A DNA stretch of 64,000 nt. It comes from Lytechinus pictus. Its lineage: Eukaryota. The stretch is taken from assembly GCF_037042905.1 (NCBI RefSeq), contig NC_087250.1, positions 16,122,001 to 16,186,000 of the forward strand, in the 5' to 3' direction. Under the pieces are notes generated by a model. That model was not told the DNA's origin. It worked only from the letters and a program-made list of their open reading frames with translations, and did not search any database. Both the position numbers and the translations under genes were made by a program. This document shows positions 361 through 27,600 of this stretch, piece by piece. Position 1 is the stretch's first letter, and every line of letters begins with the position of its first letter.

Positions 361-480
361 GAATATTGTGTAGTCTTTTCAGTTCAAAACAGAAAGACCT
401 TTACAATGAAACAAAGATCATATTAAAAAAAATAGTCTGTATTCCTTTAAATAATCGTTTGTTTTCTCCTATCTTTTCAG

Positions 481-605
481 TTCTAAACAGATAGACCTTT
501 ACGATGAGACGTTTAGATCATTAGTTGAGTCTGTGCTACAAGGATTCAATGGAACTATATTTGCTTATGGGCAAACAGGAACCGGCAAGACATTCACGAT
601 GGAAG
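481..605 (+). CDS. KIF3B: Kinesin exon A ([41 protein letters not shown])
   Basis: tttcag acceptor, GTAAAG donor, P-loop. Confidence 0.95.
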
Positions 606-21600: not shown

Positions 21601-24600
21601 ACTCAAAAAGTCATAGTAATGAAGGAGAGAGAAAGATAATAAGAACACACTCAAAATGAACTCAGAGAACTCAAACTCAAGTAAGTCTTGATCTATGAAA
21701 AAGGAGTTAGCGACGAAGAGAACTAGAACAAACTCAGAATGAACTTATTAGAGAACTCAAACTCAAGTAAGTCGTGGTAATTAAGAAGGGAGAGAGAGAG
21801 ATAGAATAACTTGAACGGACTAAAAATGAACTCGTCAAAGAACTCAAACTCAAAGTCATAAATATTAAGAGAGAGAGAGAAGAACTAGAACAGACTAAAG
21901 ATCAAGTCATGGGAGAACTCAAAAAGTCATAGTAATTAAGATGGAGAGAGAGAATAAGAACACACTCAAAATAAACTCAGAGAACTCAAACTCAAGTAAG
22001 TCTTGATCTATGAAAAAGGAGATAGCGAGGAAGAGAACTAGACCAAACTCAGAATGAACTCATTAGAGAACTCAAGCTCAAGTAAGTCATGGTAATTAAG
22101 AAGGGGGGAACTAGAAAAGACTCAAAATGAACTCATTACAGATTTTAAACTCAAGTAAGTAATGGTAATTAAGAGAGTGAAGTAGAGTGAGAGGAAGAGA
22201 GAGGGAGATAACTAGAACAAACTTGAGATGAACTCATTAGAGAACTCAAACTCAAGTAAGTCATGGTAATTAAGAAGGTAGAGAGAGAGAGAATAACTTG
22301 AACAGACTAAAAATGAACTCGTCATAGAACTCAAACTCGGGTAAGGTCATAAGAATTAAGAGAGAGAGAACTAGAATAGACTGAAATTTAAGTCATGGGA
22401 GAACTCAAAAAGTCATGGTAATTAAGATGGAGAGAGATAATAAGAATACACTCAAAATGAACTCAGAGAACTCAAGGAGATAGCGAGGAAGAGAACTAGA
22501 ACAAACTCAGAATGAACTCATTAGAGAACTCAAACTCAAGTAAGTCATGGTAATTAAGAAGGGGGGAACTAGAAAAGACTCAAAATGAACTCATTACAGA
22601 TCTTAAACTCAAGTAAGTAATGGTAATTAAGAAAGTAAAGTAGAGTGAGAGGGAGAGAGAGGGAGATAACTAGAACAAACTCGAGATGAACTTGTTAGAG
22701 AATTAAAACTCAAGTAAGTCTTGGTAATTAAGAAGGGGGGGGGGGACTAGAACAGACTCAAGATGAACTCATTACAGATCTTAAACTCAAGTAAGTAATG
22801 GTAATTAAGAAAGTAAAGTAGAGTGAGAGGGAGAGAGAGGGAGATAACTAGAACAAACTCGAGATGAACTCATTAGAGAACTCAAACTCAAGTACAAATG
22901 TAAGTCATGGTAATTAAGAAGGGGGGGGGAACTAGAACAGACTCAAAATGAACTCATTACAGATCTTAAACTTGAGTCATGGTAATACAGAGAGTGAAGT
23001 AGAGTGAGAGGGACATAACTAGAACAGACTCGAGATGAACTCATTAGAGAACTCAAACTCAAGTAAGTCATAATAGAGAGTGAGAGGGAGAGAGAGAGAA
23101 TAACTAGAACAGACTCAAGATGAACCAGTAAGAGAACTTAAACTCAAGTAAGACATCAGAATTAAGGAAGGGGAGAGAAAATGAGAGTGAATGAAAGAGG
23201 TATAGAGAGAGAAATAGGGTGGGGGATATTATATTAAGTCAGGAAGCTAAGTAAGTTGATCTTTTTTCATGTACATGTACATGCAAGTGAGGTGTAGGAA
23301 AAGATTCCACCACCATTCGGTCTAGAGAGAGAAAAATCTTTACAATAGAAAATGAAAATTGAATAAGAAATGTAGTATTTTTAGATTGCTCTGTTTGAAT
23401 AATTATTGACAAAAATAAGCTCCGAATGTTGAAAATATGACCGTTCCATCAGTTATTTTCATGATTTTTTTTCTTCTATTTTTTCATGAACAGGAAGCTG
23501 ATAGCTGATAATTTCATCCCATTAGAAGAGAGAACAAAGATCACAACAAGAGCTGTGTTTGATGAAGAGAGTGAAGAATGGTTACTCACCCCATTAGCAA
23601 AGGCCGAAGGGTATGTACTCTTATAGATCTTTATGTTGGAACATTGATAACATTCTTCTTTTACTGACCCCATTAGCAGAAGGCTGAAAGTGTGTATCCT
23701 ATATGTATCTTTCTGTTTGAAAATTAATAACTTTCTTCTTTTAGACAGTATAGGAATGGTTTCGGACACCACTTGCAAAGGCTGAAGTGTGTGTCATATA
23801 TATGTATGTTTGAAAATTGATAACATACTTATTTTAGCCGTTGTATAAGAATGGTTAGTATAAAACCAAATAGCAAAGTCTGAAGGGTGCATGTCCTATT
23901 CAGATCTTTTGTGTTTAAAAAATGGTAACTGTCTTCTTTGAGGCAGAGTATAGGAATGGTTACTTACCACATTAGGAAAGGCTAAATAAATTGGTAACTG
24001 TCTTTTTTTAGACAGAAAATATGAATTGTTACTGACCTCATTAGCAAAGGCTGAATGGTATGTCCTTAAGATCTTTATGTAGAAAATTGGCAACTTTCTT
24101 TTTTGTAAAATGGCAGTTTTGTTACTGACCCCTCTCCTGTCGCAAGGATAGGTGTTTGCAATGCAGAAATAACATTTGAAACATAGGTGTGCTAAGTGTT
24201 AAATGTCCTTTTTGGTGCCGTAACACAAGGGTTAGCGATTAATCGTATGCTTGATTTTCACAATTGCATGTTTTTTAGTCAATGTAATCAATCGTAAATA
24301 AAAACTAAAATGTTATATGATGAATGCTAAGCTTTGTGTTATTGTCCCCTGGAGAGTGTTTCATGAAAGGATCGTTTCAGATGTTTTCCCCAGTTTCATA
24401 AAGCTGTTTTTAAGTTAAGAGTGACTTAAAGAACGACAGGTGATCCTTTCTTGAACGCTAAACCATATCGCCAATGAACGATTTGGTGTATACATTTACC
24501 ACAAGATAAGGATCACCAGTCGTTCTTAAAGTCGCTTTTAACTTACGAATATCTTTATGAAATGGCTCCCAGTTATCATAGTCAGACATATCTCCTTCTC

Positions 24601-27600
24601 TACCAATCAAACCAAGGGAATTTGTCACATCAGGTGTCCCTCTTACAAAGAGTTAGGTTTGATCCAATCTATCGTAACTCTGGAAATCCATCAGTGTCAT
24701 AATTTTTTCTACAGAGAATTTTCAACAAAACAATGAATGCATGAATATATACATTATAGTTAGAAAATATTTTGAACAAACATGCATAATAGAAGTTGAC
24801 GTTGCTGGCCGTCCATAGTTGTGATTGATCGGATCAATCGTAACTCTTTGTAAGACGGGGCCCAGAAAAATGTTATGATAAGGTCATGTTAAGGTTTCCT
24901 AGAGCTCTACTGTCAGATGACAAATGTTGATGAAAGCTTGTGATAATACTGCTTAACCTCAATTTGTTTCTCCCATTTTGGTTTCAGACCTCAACAGATG
25001 GCAAAGAGGCCAGTATCCGCAGTGGGCAACCGCCGACCCATCGCTGACTACGCTCGTATGGCAGCTCAGATGGGAGGAAATCCAAGATATAAGGTAGGGG
25101 GACCTACCTCTTCAACCCAGAACTATTTACTAGATCATGGCTGGGAATCAAATCCATGTCCCTCAGATTGAAAGACGAGAGTCATAACCACTAGACCTTG
25201 AGGCCTCCATAATATAGGAAATTCATATCGCATTCAGTATTCAATAATTAGAACTTCATTCCTTGAAATGCCCAGGAAATATTCTAAAGACAGGGGATCT
25301 TGTTCACTTCTGTATCCATTTACATGTATACGGGATACCAGCCAAAGCTGTCCTGCAAGAGTTAGCATAACAGAAACAGAAACAGTACTACATTCTGTAT
25401 GCCTAGGAACGCCCGGAACATATTCTAAATGCTTTTGTATGTCTCTGTATTTAGTTCTAGATTTTACCTCACTCCCAATATATCAGAGGAAACAGAGTTA
25501 TATGAACTTTATCATGTGGTGCCAATAAGCAGCTAAAACTTATTAAGAAGTAAGTAGCATGTTCGCTTCCACTGCATTTTTGGCTCTTTCCACCAGCGTT
25601 TATCTGAAGCAATTAAGAACTGTTTACACTAATTTATGAAAATGTTGTCATGATTTGTGCTATCCTCTCTTTGTAGGCTGAGAACATTCTTGCTGTTGAC
25701 CTTGACATGCCGAACAGGACGACACGAGACTACGAGGGTCCGTCGGTAGCACCAAGGGTTCAGGCTGCATTGGATGCAGCTCTACAAGATGAAGATGATC
25801 TTGATCTAGAAGTACAGTAAGTATTAGATAAGATTAAATGAGAGAAATAGAGAGGGTCCGTCGTTTGCACCGAGGGTACAGGCTGCTTTAGATGCACCTC
25901 TACAAGATGAAGATGATCTTGATTTAGAAGTACAGTAAGTATTAGAGAAAGAGAGTGAGAGAGGGGGGTCTATCGGTAGCACCGAGGGTCCAGGCTGCAT
26001 TGGATGCAGCTCTACAAGATGAAAATGACCTTGATCGAGAAGTAGAGAACGTATTATAGACGATTAGTTGAGAGAGCGGTAGAGGGTCCACTGGTGGCAC
26101 CGAAGGATCAGGCTGCTTTTGATGCAGCTCTACAAGATGAGGATGATCTTGATCTAGAAGTACAGTAAGTATTAGATAAGATTAAATGAGAGAAATAGGG
26201 AGGGTCCGTCGTTTGCACCGAGGGTACAGGCTGCTTTAGATGTACATGTACCTCTACAAGATGAGGATAATCTTGATCTAGAAGTACAGTAAGTATTAGA
26301 GAAGATTAAATGAGAGAGAGAGAGGGTCTGTCGGTAGCAACGAGGGTCCTGGCTGCCTTGGATGCAGCTCTGTAATATGAAGACTATCTTGATCTAGAAG
26401 TAGAACAAGTATTAGAGAAGATTAATTGAGAGAGAGAGAGTGAGAGGTAGAGGGTCCGCTGGTGGCACCGAAGGGTCAGGATGCTTTTGATGCAGCTCTA
26501 CAAGATCTAGAAGCACAGTACGTATTAGAGAAGATTAAATGAGAGAGGGAAACAGAAAGAGACAAACAGAGGTAAACATGCAGAGAGATAGACAAAGATA
26601 GTGAAAGAAGCTGGCCAATACACTCATTGAAGATTATTGCTACTTTAGATACTGCTTTAAAATAATCTGGATCGAGGAGTACAGTACATAATATTAGAGG
26701 AGATTGGGGAGAGAGAGAGAGATAAAGCGACAGAGAGAAACATAGAGATAATGATAATGATTGCAATGTTAATAATGACAACAACAGCATTGTCAATATT
26801 TAATTTTCCAATAGCACCGAGGATTATTGCTGCTTTAGCATGTAACAAGAAGATGCAATCCAATTTCGAATTCAATTTATTTATTAGGAAACAATCGCAT
26901 GAGTAGATATATACTTTGTAAAATGTGAGGATCAAACCCCTTATGAAAGCCAGTTTCTTGAAAAGTAAGAAGATCCATAACATTAAAATATAGCAAATAA
27001 ATACAGTGAATAAAAAAAAAGCATAAAGATGATCTTGATCTAGACATGCATTCAGTATGACGTTTGCAATCCCTCGCTAAATGACAATAGTCATTCAATT
27101 TCATTGTTGTAAGTTAATTATTGTTATGGGGCCCATGTACATTCCATAGACTCCCAACTAGGAATACCATTATATTTCCTAGAAGGTTAAAGTGAGTTTT
27201 TTTTTCCTTTTTCTTCCAGACCTGAAGTTTTTAAGGCCAAGACGAAGCTGAAGAAAGACAAAGTCAGATCAAAGTAAGCTATCTTCTTTAATTTGTAAGC
27301 ACGATATGAATATTCATGGATCTGTGGACTGTTTCTAAATTGGAGCATAGGAGGTGTTTTATTCATGAAATCAAAACATACATGTAGCTGAAAGTCTCAA
27401 TTGCAATAAATTTCTTTTTTTTATTTAAAGGACAAGTCCACCCCAACAAAAAGTTGATTTGAAGACAAAGAGAAAAATCCAACAAGCATAACACTGAAAA
27501 TTTCATCAAAATTGGATGTAAAATAAGAAAGTTAAGACACTTAAGTTTCGCTTAATTTCACAAATCAGTTATATGCACATCCTGGTTGGTATGCAAATGA

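What the first reader, a model, noticed from the sequence alone, without database searches (positions are those of the whole stretch)
374..27058. Gene-wide splice-junction echoes: 8 of 18 kinesin exons have their own exon-intron boundary tandemly amplified into the intron
Seen: exons A, F, I and L have upstream copies of [acceptor + exon head]; exons H, M, N and P have downstream copies of [exon tail + donor]. Copy number runs from 1 to ~24, with unrelated unit lengths (~84, ~91, ~95, ~118, ~237 bp) and very different divergence, so these are independent events of different ages. Junctions are a small part of this 28-kb gene, yet its complex tandem arrays (outside transposons) all sit on them. 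Inference: either a mutational process seeds tandem duplication at exon boundaries (e.g. nucleosome-edge or R-loop breaks, spliceosome-coupled damage), or the arrays are kept as splicing decoys or poison modules. Most decoys lead to an in-frame stop. I do not know this pattern as a named feature class.
Basis: partly seen in the sequence, partly recalled or inferred. Interest (0 to 1): 0.82.

Follow-up and report, generated by a model that had tools for sequence, protein, structure and literature searches.

The report
Splice-junction "mirage" repeats in urchin kinesin
In a sea-urchin kinesin gene, seven exon edges with their splice signals have been copied in tandem into the adjoining introns, a feature already named "mirage" minisatellites in amphioxus but apparently not reported in echinoderms.

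Summary
The window carries 18 exons of the Lytechinus pictus kinesin-II 95 kDa (KRP95/KIF3B) gene. Seven exon-intron junctions (A, H, I, L, M, N, P) have 1 to 24 diverged copies of [exon edge + splice signal] in the adjoining intron. The eighth (F) is marginal.

It matches the "mirage" minisatellites of amphioxus (Adh3, globins, TnC, PGBD5) and human cases such as F7 intron 7, IFI6, CBS, LMNB2 and PDGF.

- **Junction bias in this gene:** 7 of 9 local duplication events span a junction, against 1.5 expected (P = 4e-5).
- **Junction bias elsewhere:** in 68 kinesin and myosin exons from the same genome the bias is weak (7 of 18 events, 3.7 expected, P = 0.04). Clear mirages do occur there, including a 31-copy donor array in a myosin gene.
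- **Splicing:** the public gene model and one RNA contig use the authentic sites. The arrays carry almost no RNA depth.
- **Decoys:** every decoy tested would give an early stop. Copies show no excess conservation of splice motifs or codons.

Best reading: tolerated by-products of local tandem duplication and unequal exchange, not decoy modules. The cause of the junction bias is unknown.

The parts
374..412 (+). Echo of exon A acceptor plus exon head; one copy, 98 bp upstream of the real site at 472-510, with TTTTCAG kept
   Evidence: 35 of 39 nt identical; 0 of 200 shuffles
8999..9046 (+). Possible old echo of exon F acceptor, 88 bp upstream of 9087-9134, with only 9 nt of exon; marginal
   Evidence: score 32; 2 of 200 shuffles
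12389..12453 (+). Echo of exon H tail plus donor; one copy, 290 bp downstream of 12099-12163; donor decayed to GCGAGT
   Evidence: 80% over 65 nt; 0 of 200 shuffles
13958..15039 (+). Array I: 5 upstream copies of [about 188 nt intron tail + acceptor + 49 nt exon I head]; 237-bp unit; AG kept in 5 of 5. The real unit is 15201-15403.
15040..15200 (.). Insertion of about 160 bp, with inverted-repeat ends by my reading, that splits the last I unit from the array. I read it as a small transposon.
   Evidence: query 15000-15039 and 15201-15403 are contiguous in each copy
19441..20019 (+). Array L: 6 upstream copies of [51 nt intron tail + acceptor + about 33 nt exon L head]; 84-bp unit; AG kept in 5 of 6. 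Inner copies are nearly identical to each other but 86-89% to the real unit.
21131..23195 (+). Array M: the real exon tail (21131-21176) plus donor, then 24 copies; 91-bp unit ending in a variable (GA)n tract. 18 of 24 copies keep a GTAAG donor core. Blocks of several units recur. The copies fill 2019 of the 2317 nt of intron M.
   Evidence: unit found nowhere else in the genome (23 of 23 matches lie in this array)
23583..24104 (+). Array N: real exon tail plus donor (23583-23663), then 5 copies (one partial), 73-90% identical
25734..26546 (+). Array P: real exon tail (83 nt) plus donor plus 35 nt intron, then 6 copies; 118-bp unit, 76-91% identical
26659..27058 (+). Two outlying remnants of the P unit (26659-26722 and 27023-27058)
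481..28251 (+). Kinesin-II 95 kDa (KRP95/KIF3B) gene, exons A-R, residues 65-742 and the stop codon. Earlier exons lie more than 10 kb upstream of the window.

Best explanation
These are 'mirage'-type minisatellites. Each arose from a short tandem duplication (73-290 bp) with one end inside an exon and the other inside the adjoining intron. The intron therefore received a copy of the exon edge with its splice signal.

Later unequal exchange and slippage expanded some of them into arrays, up to 24 copies in M, and homogenised the inner units. The copies are non-coding, decay roughly neutrally, and now make up about 5 kb (18%) of the gene portion seen here.

The gene tolerates them for two reasons. 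The spliceosome keeps using the authentic, exon-proximal site. Any use of a copy would give an early stop, so such RNAs would probably be removed by nonsense-mediated decay.

Shown: the anatomy, the independent origins and ages, the junction bias in this gene, use of the authentic sites, and the presence of the same structures in other genes of this genome.

Inferred: the duplication mechanism. Slippage or repair at short purine-rich direct repeats is my favoured guess, on weak evidence. Also inferred: neutrality, and removal of mis-spliced RNA.
For: Anatomy:
- TRF and self-alignment place five arrays on junctions, plus two single copies.
- 7 of 35 junction probes beat 200 of 200 shuffles.
- The M unit occurs nowhere else in the 812-Mb assembly (23 of 23 matches in the array), so it is not a dispersed repeat.
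- Multi-unit blocks recur in M. Inner L copies are more alike than they are to the real unit. This matches the concerted evolution that spares array ends, described for amphioxus mirages (PMC3087553 passage).

Junction bias: 7 of 9 events span a junction, 1.52 expected, P = 4e-5. If two microsatellite-like families are added as misses, P = 2.4e-4.

Not gene-specific:
- A kinesin gene on contig C9 has 3 mirages among the 4 motor-domain exons matched by the Pfam profile.
- A kinesin exon in locus L035 has 2.
- A myosin exon in L087 has 2-3 upstream acceptor copies.
- A myosin exon on C20 is followed by 31 copies of a 73-bp donor unit.

Splicing:
- The public gene model uses all the authentic sites with 0 mismatches.
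- RNA contig X1 record 2 joins exon L directly to exon M at the authentic sites and ends at donor 21176.
- RNA depth in the M array bins is 0-0.35, against 1.67-3.08 in the exon M bin.

Neutral decay:
- The donor core is kept in 18 of 24 M copies. GT is kept in 5 of 8 P copies and AG in 5 of 6 L copies, no better than neighbouring columns.
- Variants by codon position are 42:35:53, P = 0.13.
- All decoys tested give early stops.

Purine tracts: 5 of 8 unit joints have a purine or pyrimidine run of 8 nt or more within 20 nt, against 26% of control positions, P = 0.033.
Against: - The genome-sample support for junction bias is weak. It is P = 0.038 for kinesin and myosin pooled, and myosin alone shows nothing (3 of 7 events, 2.4 expected, P = 0.44).
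- A cruder test that shuffled exon position against repeat footprints gave no enrichment (observed 3, expected 2.89, P = 0.60).
- The sampled exons come from only two gene families, and several come from the same genes.
- The purine-tract link is weak and absent at 3 of 8 joints (I, L010, L027a). It cannot be the whole cause, and these exons are purine-rich anyway.
- The splice-joint table was swamped by transposon reads. Low-level use of decoys is therefore not excluded, and RNA support rests on one contig, the depth profile and the public gene model.
- Length variation between haplotypes and presence in other echinoids were not tested.
- A and H are single, non-adjacent copies, so their tandem origin is inferred.
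Confidence: 0.75

Rival explanations
1. The arrays are kept by selection as splicing devices. They could be decoy sites that divert some transcripts into nonsense-mediated decay (a dosage control), or clusters of U1 or U2AF binding sites that help define the neighbouring exon.
For: Many copies keep strong signals: 16 of 24 M copies read AA|GTAAG and 5 of 5 I copies keep the acceptor. Every decoy tested would give an early stop. 7 of 18 exons in this gene carry echoes, against 6 of 68 sampled exons elsewhere (Fisher P = 0.0046).
Against: Splice motifs are conserved no better than neighbouring columns, and several copies have lost them (6 of 24 in M, 3 of 8 in P, the H copy). There is almost no RNA depth over the M array. 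The public model and the RNA contig use authentic sites only. Similar arrays occur in unrelated genes. An in-frame stop just after GTAAGT follows simply from the exon phase.
Confidence: 0.08
2. There is no junction bias. Introns of this genome are full of minisatellites and some include an exon edge by chance. The excess comes from easier detection, because the exon-side master copy is conserved, and from small numbers.
For: The footprint permutation gave no enrichment. Myosin loci alone show none. Local repeat families are common in this genome: 11 in 110 kb of protein-kinase loci and 11 in window 28.3-64 kb. A constrained master copy could extend detectability by up to about two-fold (my estimate).
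Against: In the fully mapped gene, 7 of 9 events span a junction against 1.52 expected (P = 4e-5). That is far more than a two-fold detection effect. The kinesin loci lean the same way (4 of 11 events, 1.26 expected, P = 0.028). Unannotated exons in the flanks make those tests conservative.
Confidence: 0.12
3. The arrays are assembly artefacts, for example mis-joined haplotypes or over-expanded repeats.
For: Urchin genomes are highly heterozygous (my recall), and no long reads were examined here.
Against: Copies differ by 1-27% and show ordered block structure, which an over-expansion would not produce. Contigs from another run match P units 25794-26154 with 1 mismatch each, and also match 19027-19474 and 26312-26936 (table 8). 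That run may not be an independent animal. A small transposon sits inside the I array.
Confidence: 0.03
4. They are remnants of whole-exon duplications or of mutually exclusive alternative exons.
For: One sampled myosin locus (L081) has a decayed copy of most of an exon 481 bp away.
Against: In the kinesin gene each unit holds only one edge of the exon (28-83 nt) and lacks the opposite splice site. All units have in-frame stops.
Confidence: 0.02

Closest known systems
Amphioxus 'mirage' minisatellites (Adh3, globins BflGb6 and BflGb9, troponin C, PGBD5). Ebner et al. 2010, PMC3087553 (abstract and passages read). Pavelitz et al. 2013, PMC3902484 (one passage read). Canestro et al. 2002, NAR, seen only as a citation (not held).
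   Same: Tandem repeats whose unit spans an intron/exon boundary. Both 5' and 3' boundaries are affected. Units are tens to about 160 bp, with 81-100% identity. Many but not all copies keep AG/GT. Normal splicing is undisturbed. Concerted evolution spares the array ends. The mechanism is stated to be unclear.
   Different: This is an echinoid, not a cephalochordate. Seven occur in one gene, arrays reach 24-31 copies, and the unit reaches 237 bp. Haplotype and somatic length instability, shown in amphioxus, was not tested here.
Human minisatellites whose first unit spans an exon-intron boundary: F7 intron 7 (37 bp, 5-9 copies), IFI6/6-16 (25 pseudo-sites), CBS intron 13, LMNB2 (100 bp, 10-15 copies), PDGF intron 4 (81 bp, 16-18 copies). 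Borensztajn et al. 2006, PMC1557585 (abstract, introduction and discussion passages read).
   Same: The donor is reiterated downstream of the authentic site, and the most upstream site is the one used (F7, LMNB2, PDGF). The size and copy number of the LMNB2 and PDGF arrays resemble arrays M and P.
   Different: The human examples cited are donor-side, one per gene. Here four are acceptor-side. In IFI6 and CBS the first pseudo-sites are used; no such use was seen here, but the RNA data are thin.
Intron gain or sliding by tandem duplication across AG|GT (Rogers 1989; Gao and Lynch 2009; Zhuo et al. 2007). These were seen only as citations in PMC3087553 and in the listing. PMC2791625 is not held.
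   Same: An internal gene duplication creates extra splice signals, and the duplicated stretch ends up as intron.
   Different: No new intron is created here. Existing, conserved introns are lengthened, by about 5 kb in this gene.
Earlier notes of this scan on annelid genes (e1-7142945, e1-7142826)
   Same: An exon end plus donor is repeated 14-17 times, and only the first is used.
   Different: One of those notes reports mostly silent differences among units. Here the codon-position skew is not significant.

Membership tests
Mirage minisatellite (tandem duplication of an intron/exon boundary) | Head-to-tail repeats lying in an intron | tested here: met
   Arrays I, L, M, N and P. A and H are single copies at 98 and 290 bp, so for them this is inferred.
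Mirage minisatellite (tandem duplication of an intron/exon boundary) | The unit contains exon sequence, the splice signal and intron sequence, and the authentic junction is the terminal unit | tested here: met
   Exon parts of 28-83 nt and intron parts of 32-188 nt. The real unit is last in acceptor-side arrays and first in donor-side arrays.
Mirage minisatellite (tandem duplication of an intron/exon boundary) | Either boundary of an exon can be affected | tested here: met
   Acceptor side: A, I, L (F marginal). Donor side: H, M, N, P.
Mirage minisatellite (tandem duplication of an intron/exon boundary) | Many but not all copies keep AG/GT | tested here: met
   M 18 of 24, P 5 of 8, I 5 of 5, L 5 of 6, H 0 of 1, A 1 of 1.
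Mirage minisatellite (tandem duplication of an intron/exon boundary) | Regular splicing is not disturbed | tested here: met
   The public model matches the authentic sites at 17 of 17 introns. RNA contig X1 joins L to M at authentic sites, and depth over the M array is near zero. Rare decoy use is not excluded.
Mirage minisatellite (tandem duplication of an intron/exon boundary) | Copy number varies between haplotypes or in somatic tissue | not tested
   No second haplotype of the locus is in the assembly (one search found the M unit only here).
Mirage minisatellite (tandem duplication of an intron/exon boundary) | Concerted evolution inside the array, with the ends left out | tested here: met
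   Four inner L copies each differ at only 3 of 30 core positions from the real site and look nearly identical to one another, while whole units are 86-89% identical to the real unit. Multi-unit blocks recur in M.
Regulated decoy or poison splice module | Splice motifs conserved above the neutral level of the unit | tested here: not met
   Column conservation at GT is 0.7, within the 0.6-0.9 range of neighbouring columns in M. Motifs are lost in several copies.
Regulated decoy or poison splice module | Measurable use of the decoys in RNA | tested here: inconclusive
   Depth over arrays is 0-0.35, but the joint table did not show low-count joints.
Dispersed repeat or transposon-borne tandem array | Copies elsewhere in the genome | tested here: not met
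   23 of 23 genome matches of the M unit lie inside the array. Other units were not searched.

The most novel reading that the evidence does not exclude
Echinoderms share with cephalochordates a mutational process that preferentially makes short tandem duplications across exon-intron junctions. This process would be a real driver of intron growth (18% of this gene portion, 87% of intron M) and a source of intron sliding and new splice sites.

One concrete and untested form is as follows. In these very heterozygous broadcast spawners, repair synthesis that copies from a diverged homologue may re-anneal out of register at the point where conserved exon meets diverged intron. That would leave a junction-spanning duplication. 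The idea predicts that mirage density tracks heterozygosity across species, and that some genes, such as this one and the C9 kinesin, are hot.
Probability: 0.3. Interest if true: 0.7.

Novelty: new member of a known kind. Interest (0 to 1): 0.48.

Why it matters
Mirages have so far been treated as a possible peculiarity of amphioxus. [quoted passage not shown]

Finding seven in one sea-urchin gene, and more in unrelated genes of the same genome, suggests the process is wider among invertebrate deuterostomes. L. pictus has a chromosome-scale annotated assembly and is a laboratory model. A genome-wide test of junction bias and a comparison between haplotypes are therefore directly feasible.

There are also practical consequences. 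The arrays lengthen introns and place dozens of strong pseudo splice sites beside real ones. This is a natural test bed for how splice sites are chosen, and a trap for gene predictors.

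Tried and rejected
- **Footprint permutation.** Placing the exon at random against the repeat footprints gave observed 3, expected 2.89. I set it aside in favour of an event-based null because footprint size reflects later expansion, not origin. 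The result is still reported as evidence against.
- **Protein-kinase loci.** Most top matches were long single-exon reading frames, so they say little about junctions (0 of 11 events on the match, 2.47 expected).
- **Upstream 10 kb.** No kinesin exon was found, so the first 64 codons lie further away.
- **Rest of the window, 28.3-64 kb.** Pfam on 67 of 78 open frames of 70 aa or more found one zinc-finger ORF and one weak VPS8-like hit. The 11 omitted frames lay in simple repeats. A search with the VPS8-like frame found nothing. The 11 repeat families there could not be scored against exons.
- **(AGT)n after the exon B donor and (TGA)n after the exon J donor.** As echoes these were not significant (14 and 31 of 200 shuffles).
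- **RNA splice joints.** The listed rows of the joint table were transposon-related; kinesin splice joints were not among them. One search listed no indexed holder on record as RNA. The RNA runs laid were additions by species label.
- **Papers not held.** Canestro 2002 and Gao and Lynch 2009.
- **Literature searches for an echinoderm report.** None was found. That covers only the held library and those terms.
- **A fuzzy-regex scan** timed out and was replaced by a mismatch scan.

Full report
**What the locus is.** The window is G000 contig C6:16122001-16186000. A stalk exon is 99% identical to the Lytechinus pictus "kinesin-II 95 kDa subunit", P0001, 742 aa. The longest contig recorded for P0001 has the same length as C6, 28,517,652 bases, so P0001 is most likely the public model of this very gene. 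Its cluster also holds the L. variegatus and S. purpuratus KRP95 proteins.

Laying P0001 on the window gave 18 exons (A-R, 481-28251). All 17 introns are GT-AG and the spliced translation has 0 mismatches. The first 64 codons are not within the 10 kb upstream of the window.

**Checking the observation.** TRF finds complex arrays at 14155-15039 (237 bp), 19453-20042 (84 bp), 21131-23156 (91 bp and multiples), 23582-24056 (80 and 69 bp) and 25734-26440 (118 bp). Each touches an exon edge.

Mismatch scans and alignments put the copies in register with the junctions:
- A: one upstream copy of acceptor plus exon head.
- H: one downstream copy of exon tail plus donor.
- I: five upstream copies.
- L: six upstream copies.
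- M: 24 downstream copies.
- N: five downstream copies.
- P: six downstream copies plus two remnants ending at 27058.

A probe from each of the 35 junctions was aligned to its adjoining intron. Seven beat all 200 shuffles, F acceptor was reached by 2 of 200, and 27 were unremarkable.

The M unit occurs nowhere else in the 812-Mb assembly: 23 of 23 matches lie inside the array. The copies occupy about 5.0 kb of the 27.8 kb from exon A to the stop codon, and 2019 of the 2317 nt of intron M.

**Is it more than chance?** An unbiased self-alignment of the gene finds nine non-microsatellite local duplication families. Seven span a junction. If a unit of the observed length were placed uniformly, 1.52 would be expected (exact P = 4e-5). 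Counting the two microsatellite-like families next to the donors of exons B and J as misses gives P = 2.4e-4.

I then sampled other genes of the same genome: 28 kinesin-motor exon loci with 1.5-kb flanks and 40 myosin-head exon loci with 0.5-kb flanks.
- Kinesin: 4 of 11 events overlap the sampled exon, 1.26 expected, P = 0.028.
- Myosin: 3 of 7 events, 2.4 expected, P = 0.44.
- Pooled: 7 of 18 events, 3.66 expected, P = 0.038.

A cruder permutation, which moved the exon against the repeat footprints, showed nothing (observed 3, expected 2.89). Protein-kinase loci, mostly single-exon reading frames, had 0 of 11 events on the match.

The bias is therefore strong in this gene and only suggestive in the sample. 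Exons with an echo number 7 of 18 here and 6 of 68 in the sample (Fisher P = 0.0046), so this gene is unusually rich.

**The same structures elsewhere in the genome.**
- A kinesin gene on C9 has four upstream copies of a 151-bp unit [acceptor + 119 nt exon head]. It also has a donor-side copy at another exon and 2-3 acceptor-side copies at a third. That is three mirages among the four motor-domain exons matched by the Pfam profile in that stretch.
- Locus L035 has two.
- Myosin locus L087 has 2-3 upstream acceptor copies.
- A myosin exon on C20 is followed by 31 copies of a 73-bp [exon tail + donor] unit, 86-96% identical. 29 of the 32 units, the real one included, carry the exact donor motif.

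**What the copies do.** The public model uses the authentic site at every intron. In one search, a 606-nt contig of run X1 joins exon L (20018-20137) directly to exon M (21056-21176), with a 2-nt AG ambiguity at each joint. Its match ends at the authentic donor 21176. Three RNA runs give depth 1.67-3.08 in the bin holding exon M and 0-0.35 across the M array.

The listed rows of the joint table were transposon-related and kinesin splice joints were not among them, so rare decoy use cannot be excluded.

Reading through the donors of H, M, N and P meets a stop within 2-14 nt. Each of 13 acceptor-side decoys meets one within 39-123 nt.

Copies do not look constrained:
- The donor core survives in 18 of 24 M copies, at column conservation no higher than its neighbours.
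- GT survives in 5 of 8 P copies and AG in 5 of 6 L copies.
- Variant states by codon position are 42:35:53 (P = 0.13).

**How they probably arise.** The units are unrelated to each other and range from 76% to 99% identity to their masters, so these are separate events of different ages. Multi-unit blocks in M, and near-identical inner L units, point to later unequal exchange.

The units of M and P end in a variable (GA)n tract, and their exon-side ends lie in purine-rich codons. Overall 5 of 8 unit joints have a purine or pyrimidine run of 8 nt or more within 20 nt, against 26% of control positions (P = 0.033). Three joints have none.

Slippage or repair at short purine-rich direct repeats is thus a partial and weakly supported cause. 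The reason for the junction bias remains open.

**Comparison with what is known.** The pattern has a name.
- Ebner et al. [quoted passage not shown] The units are 150-160 bp, 81-100% identical, at either boundary, and many carry AG/GT. Splicing is undisturbed, copy number differs between haplotypes, and concerted evolution spares the array ends. They cite Adh3, where the term was coined, and other loci, and call the mechanism unclear.
- Pavelitz et al. 2013 (PMC3902484; one passage) add PGBD5 and troponin C.
- Borensztajn et al. 2006 (PMC1557585; passages) list human minisatellites whose first unit spans an exon-intron boundary: F7, IFI6, CBS, LMNB2 and PDGF. The upstream donor is the one used in F7, LMNB2 and PDGF.
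- Two earlier notes of this scan describe donor arrays in annelid genes.

Four searches of the held library found no report for sea urchins. The supplementary alignments of PMC3087553 were not consulted.

**Verdict.** The class is known, this is a new member in a new phylum, and its density per gene is unusual. The decoy-function reading is not supported. A junction-biased mutational process is supported in this gene but still needs the genome-wide test.

Noticed in passing
L027+L110+L010 (G000:C9:19759747-19770023): A second mirage-rich gene. This kinesin has junction-spanning duplications at 3 of the 4 motor-domain exons matched by the Pfam profile. A further repeat family starts at the apparent end of an upstream exon (local 927-1198).
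   Followed up: partly
L111+L102 (G000:C20:6507579-6510752, minus strand): A myosin-head exon is followed by 31 copies of a 73-bp [exon tail + GTGAGT donor] unit, about 2.35 kb in all. 29 of the 32 units carry the exact donor motif.
   Followed up: partly
window 15040-15200: An insertion of about 160 bp, with inverted-repeat ends by my reading, splits the last unit of array I. It looks like a small non-autonomous transposon that arrived after the array formed.
   Followed up: no
window 17265-18666 and 2862-3174; L083: Long, impure (TGA/GAT)n and (AGT)n tracts begin 13-30 nt after the donors of exons J and B. A similar (GAT)n tract follows a myosin donor in L083. They are not significant as exon echoes, but their position right after donors recurs.
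   Followed up: partly
window 20385-20701, 24189-25456, 27359-27992: Intronic stretches with RNA depth of hundreds, on both strands, with many loose ends. Opposite-strand joints cluster at 24681 and 24815-24837. These look like expressed dispersed repeats with an inverted-repeat structure.
   Followed up: no
window 2-340 and 1046-1699: A tandem family with a 162-191 bp unit that is not on a junction. A further copy lies at the window start. It is probably transposon-borne.
   Followed up: no
window 38779-39774 (-): A 332-aa open frame with zf-met / JAZ-type C2H2 zinc fingers (E = 2.5e-12). It is the only clear coding hit in 28.3-64 kb.
   Followed up: no
window 32066-32327 and 35160-36147: A 19-bp array of 13.8 copies (97% matches) and a 43-bp array of 23 copies, lying outside any mapped gene.
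   Followed up: no
G000:C7:28966763-29009091: At least 11 protein-kinase-domain matches, 10 with identical score and one close, spaced about 4.0-4.3 kb apart. This is a tandem gene or satellite-like array.
   Followed up: no
L069 7149-8822 (G000:C6:16119149-16120822): A young duplication with a 411-bp period, 97% identical, in the large intron upstream of exon A and not on a known junction.
   Followed up: no
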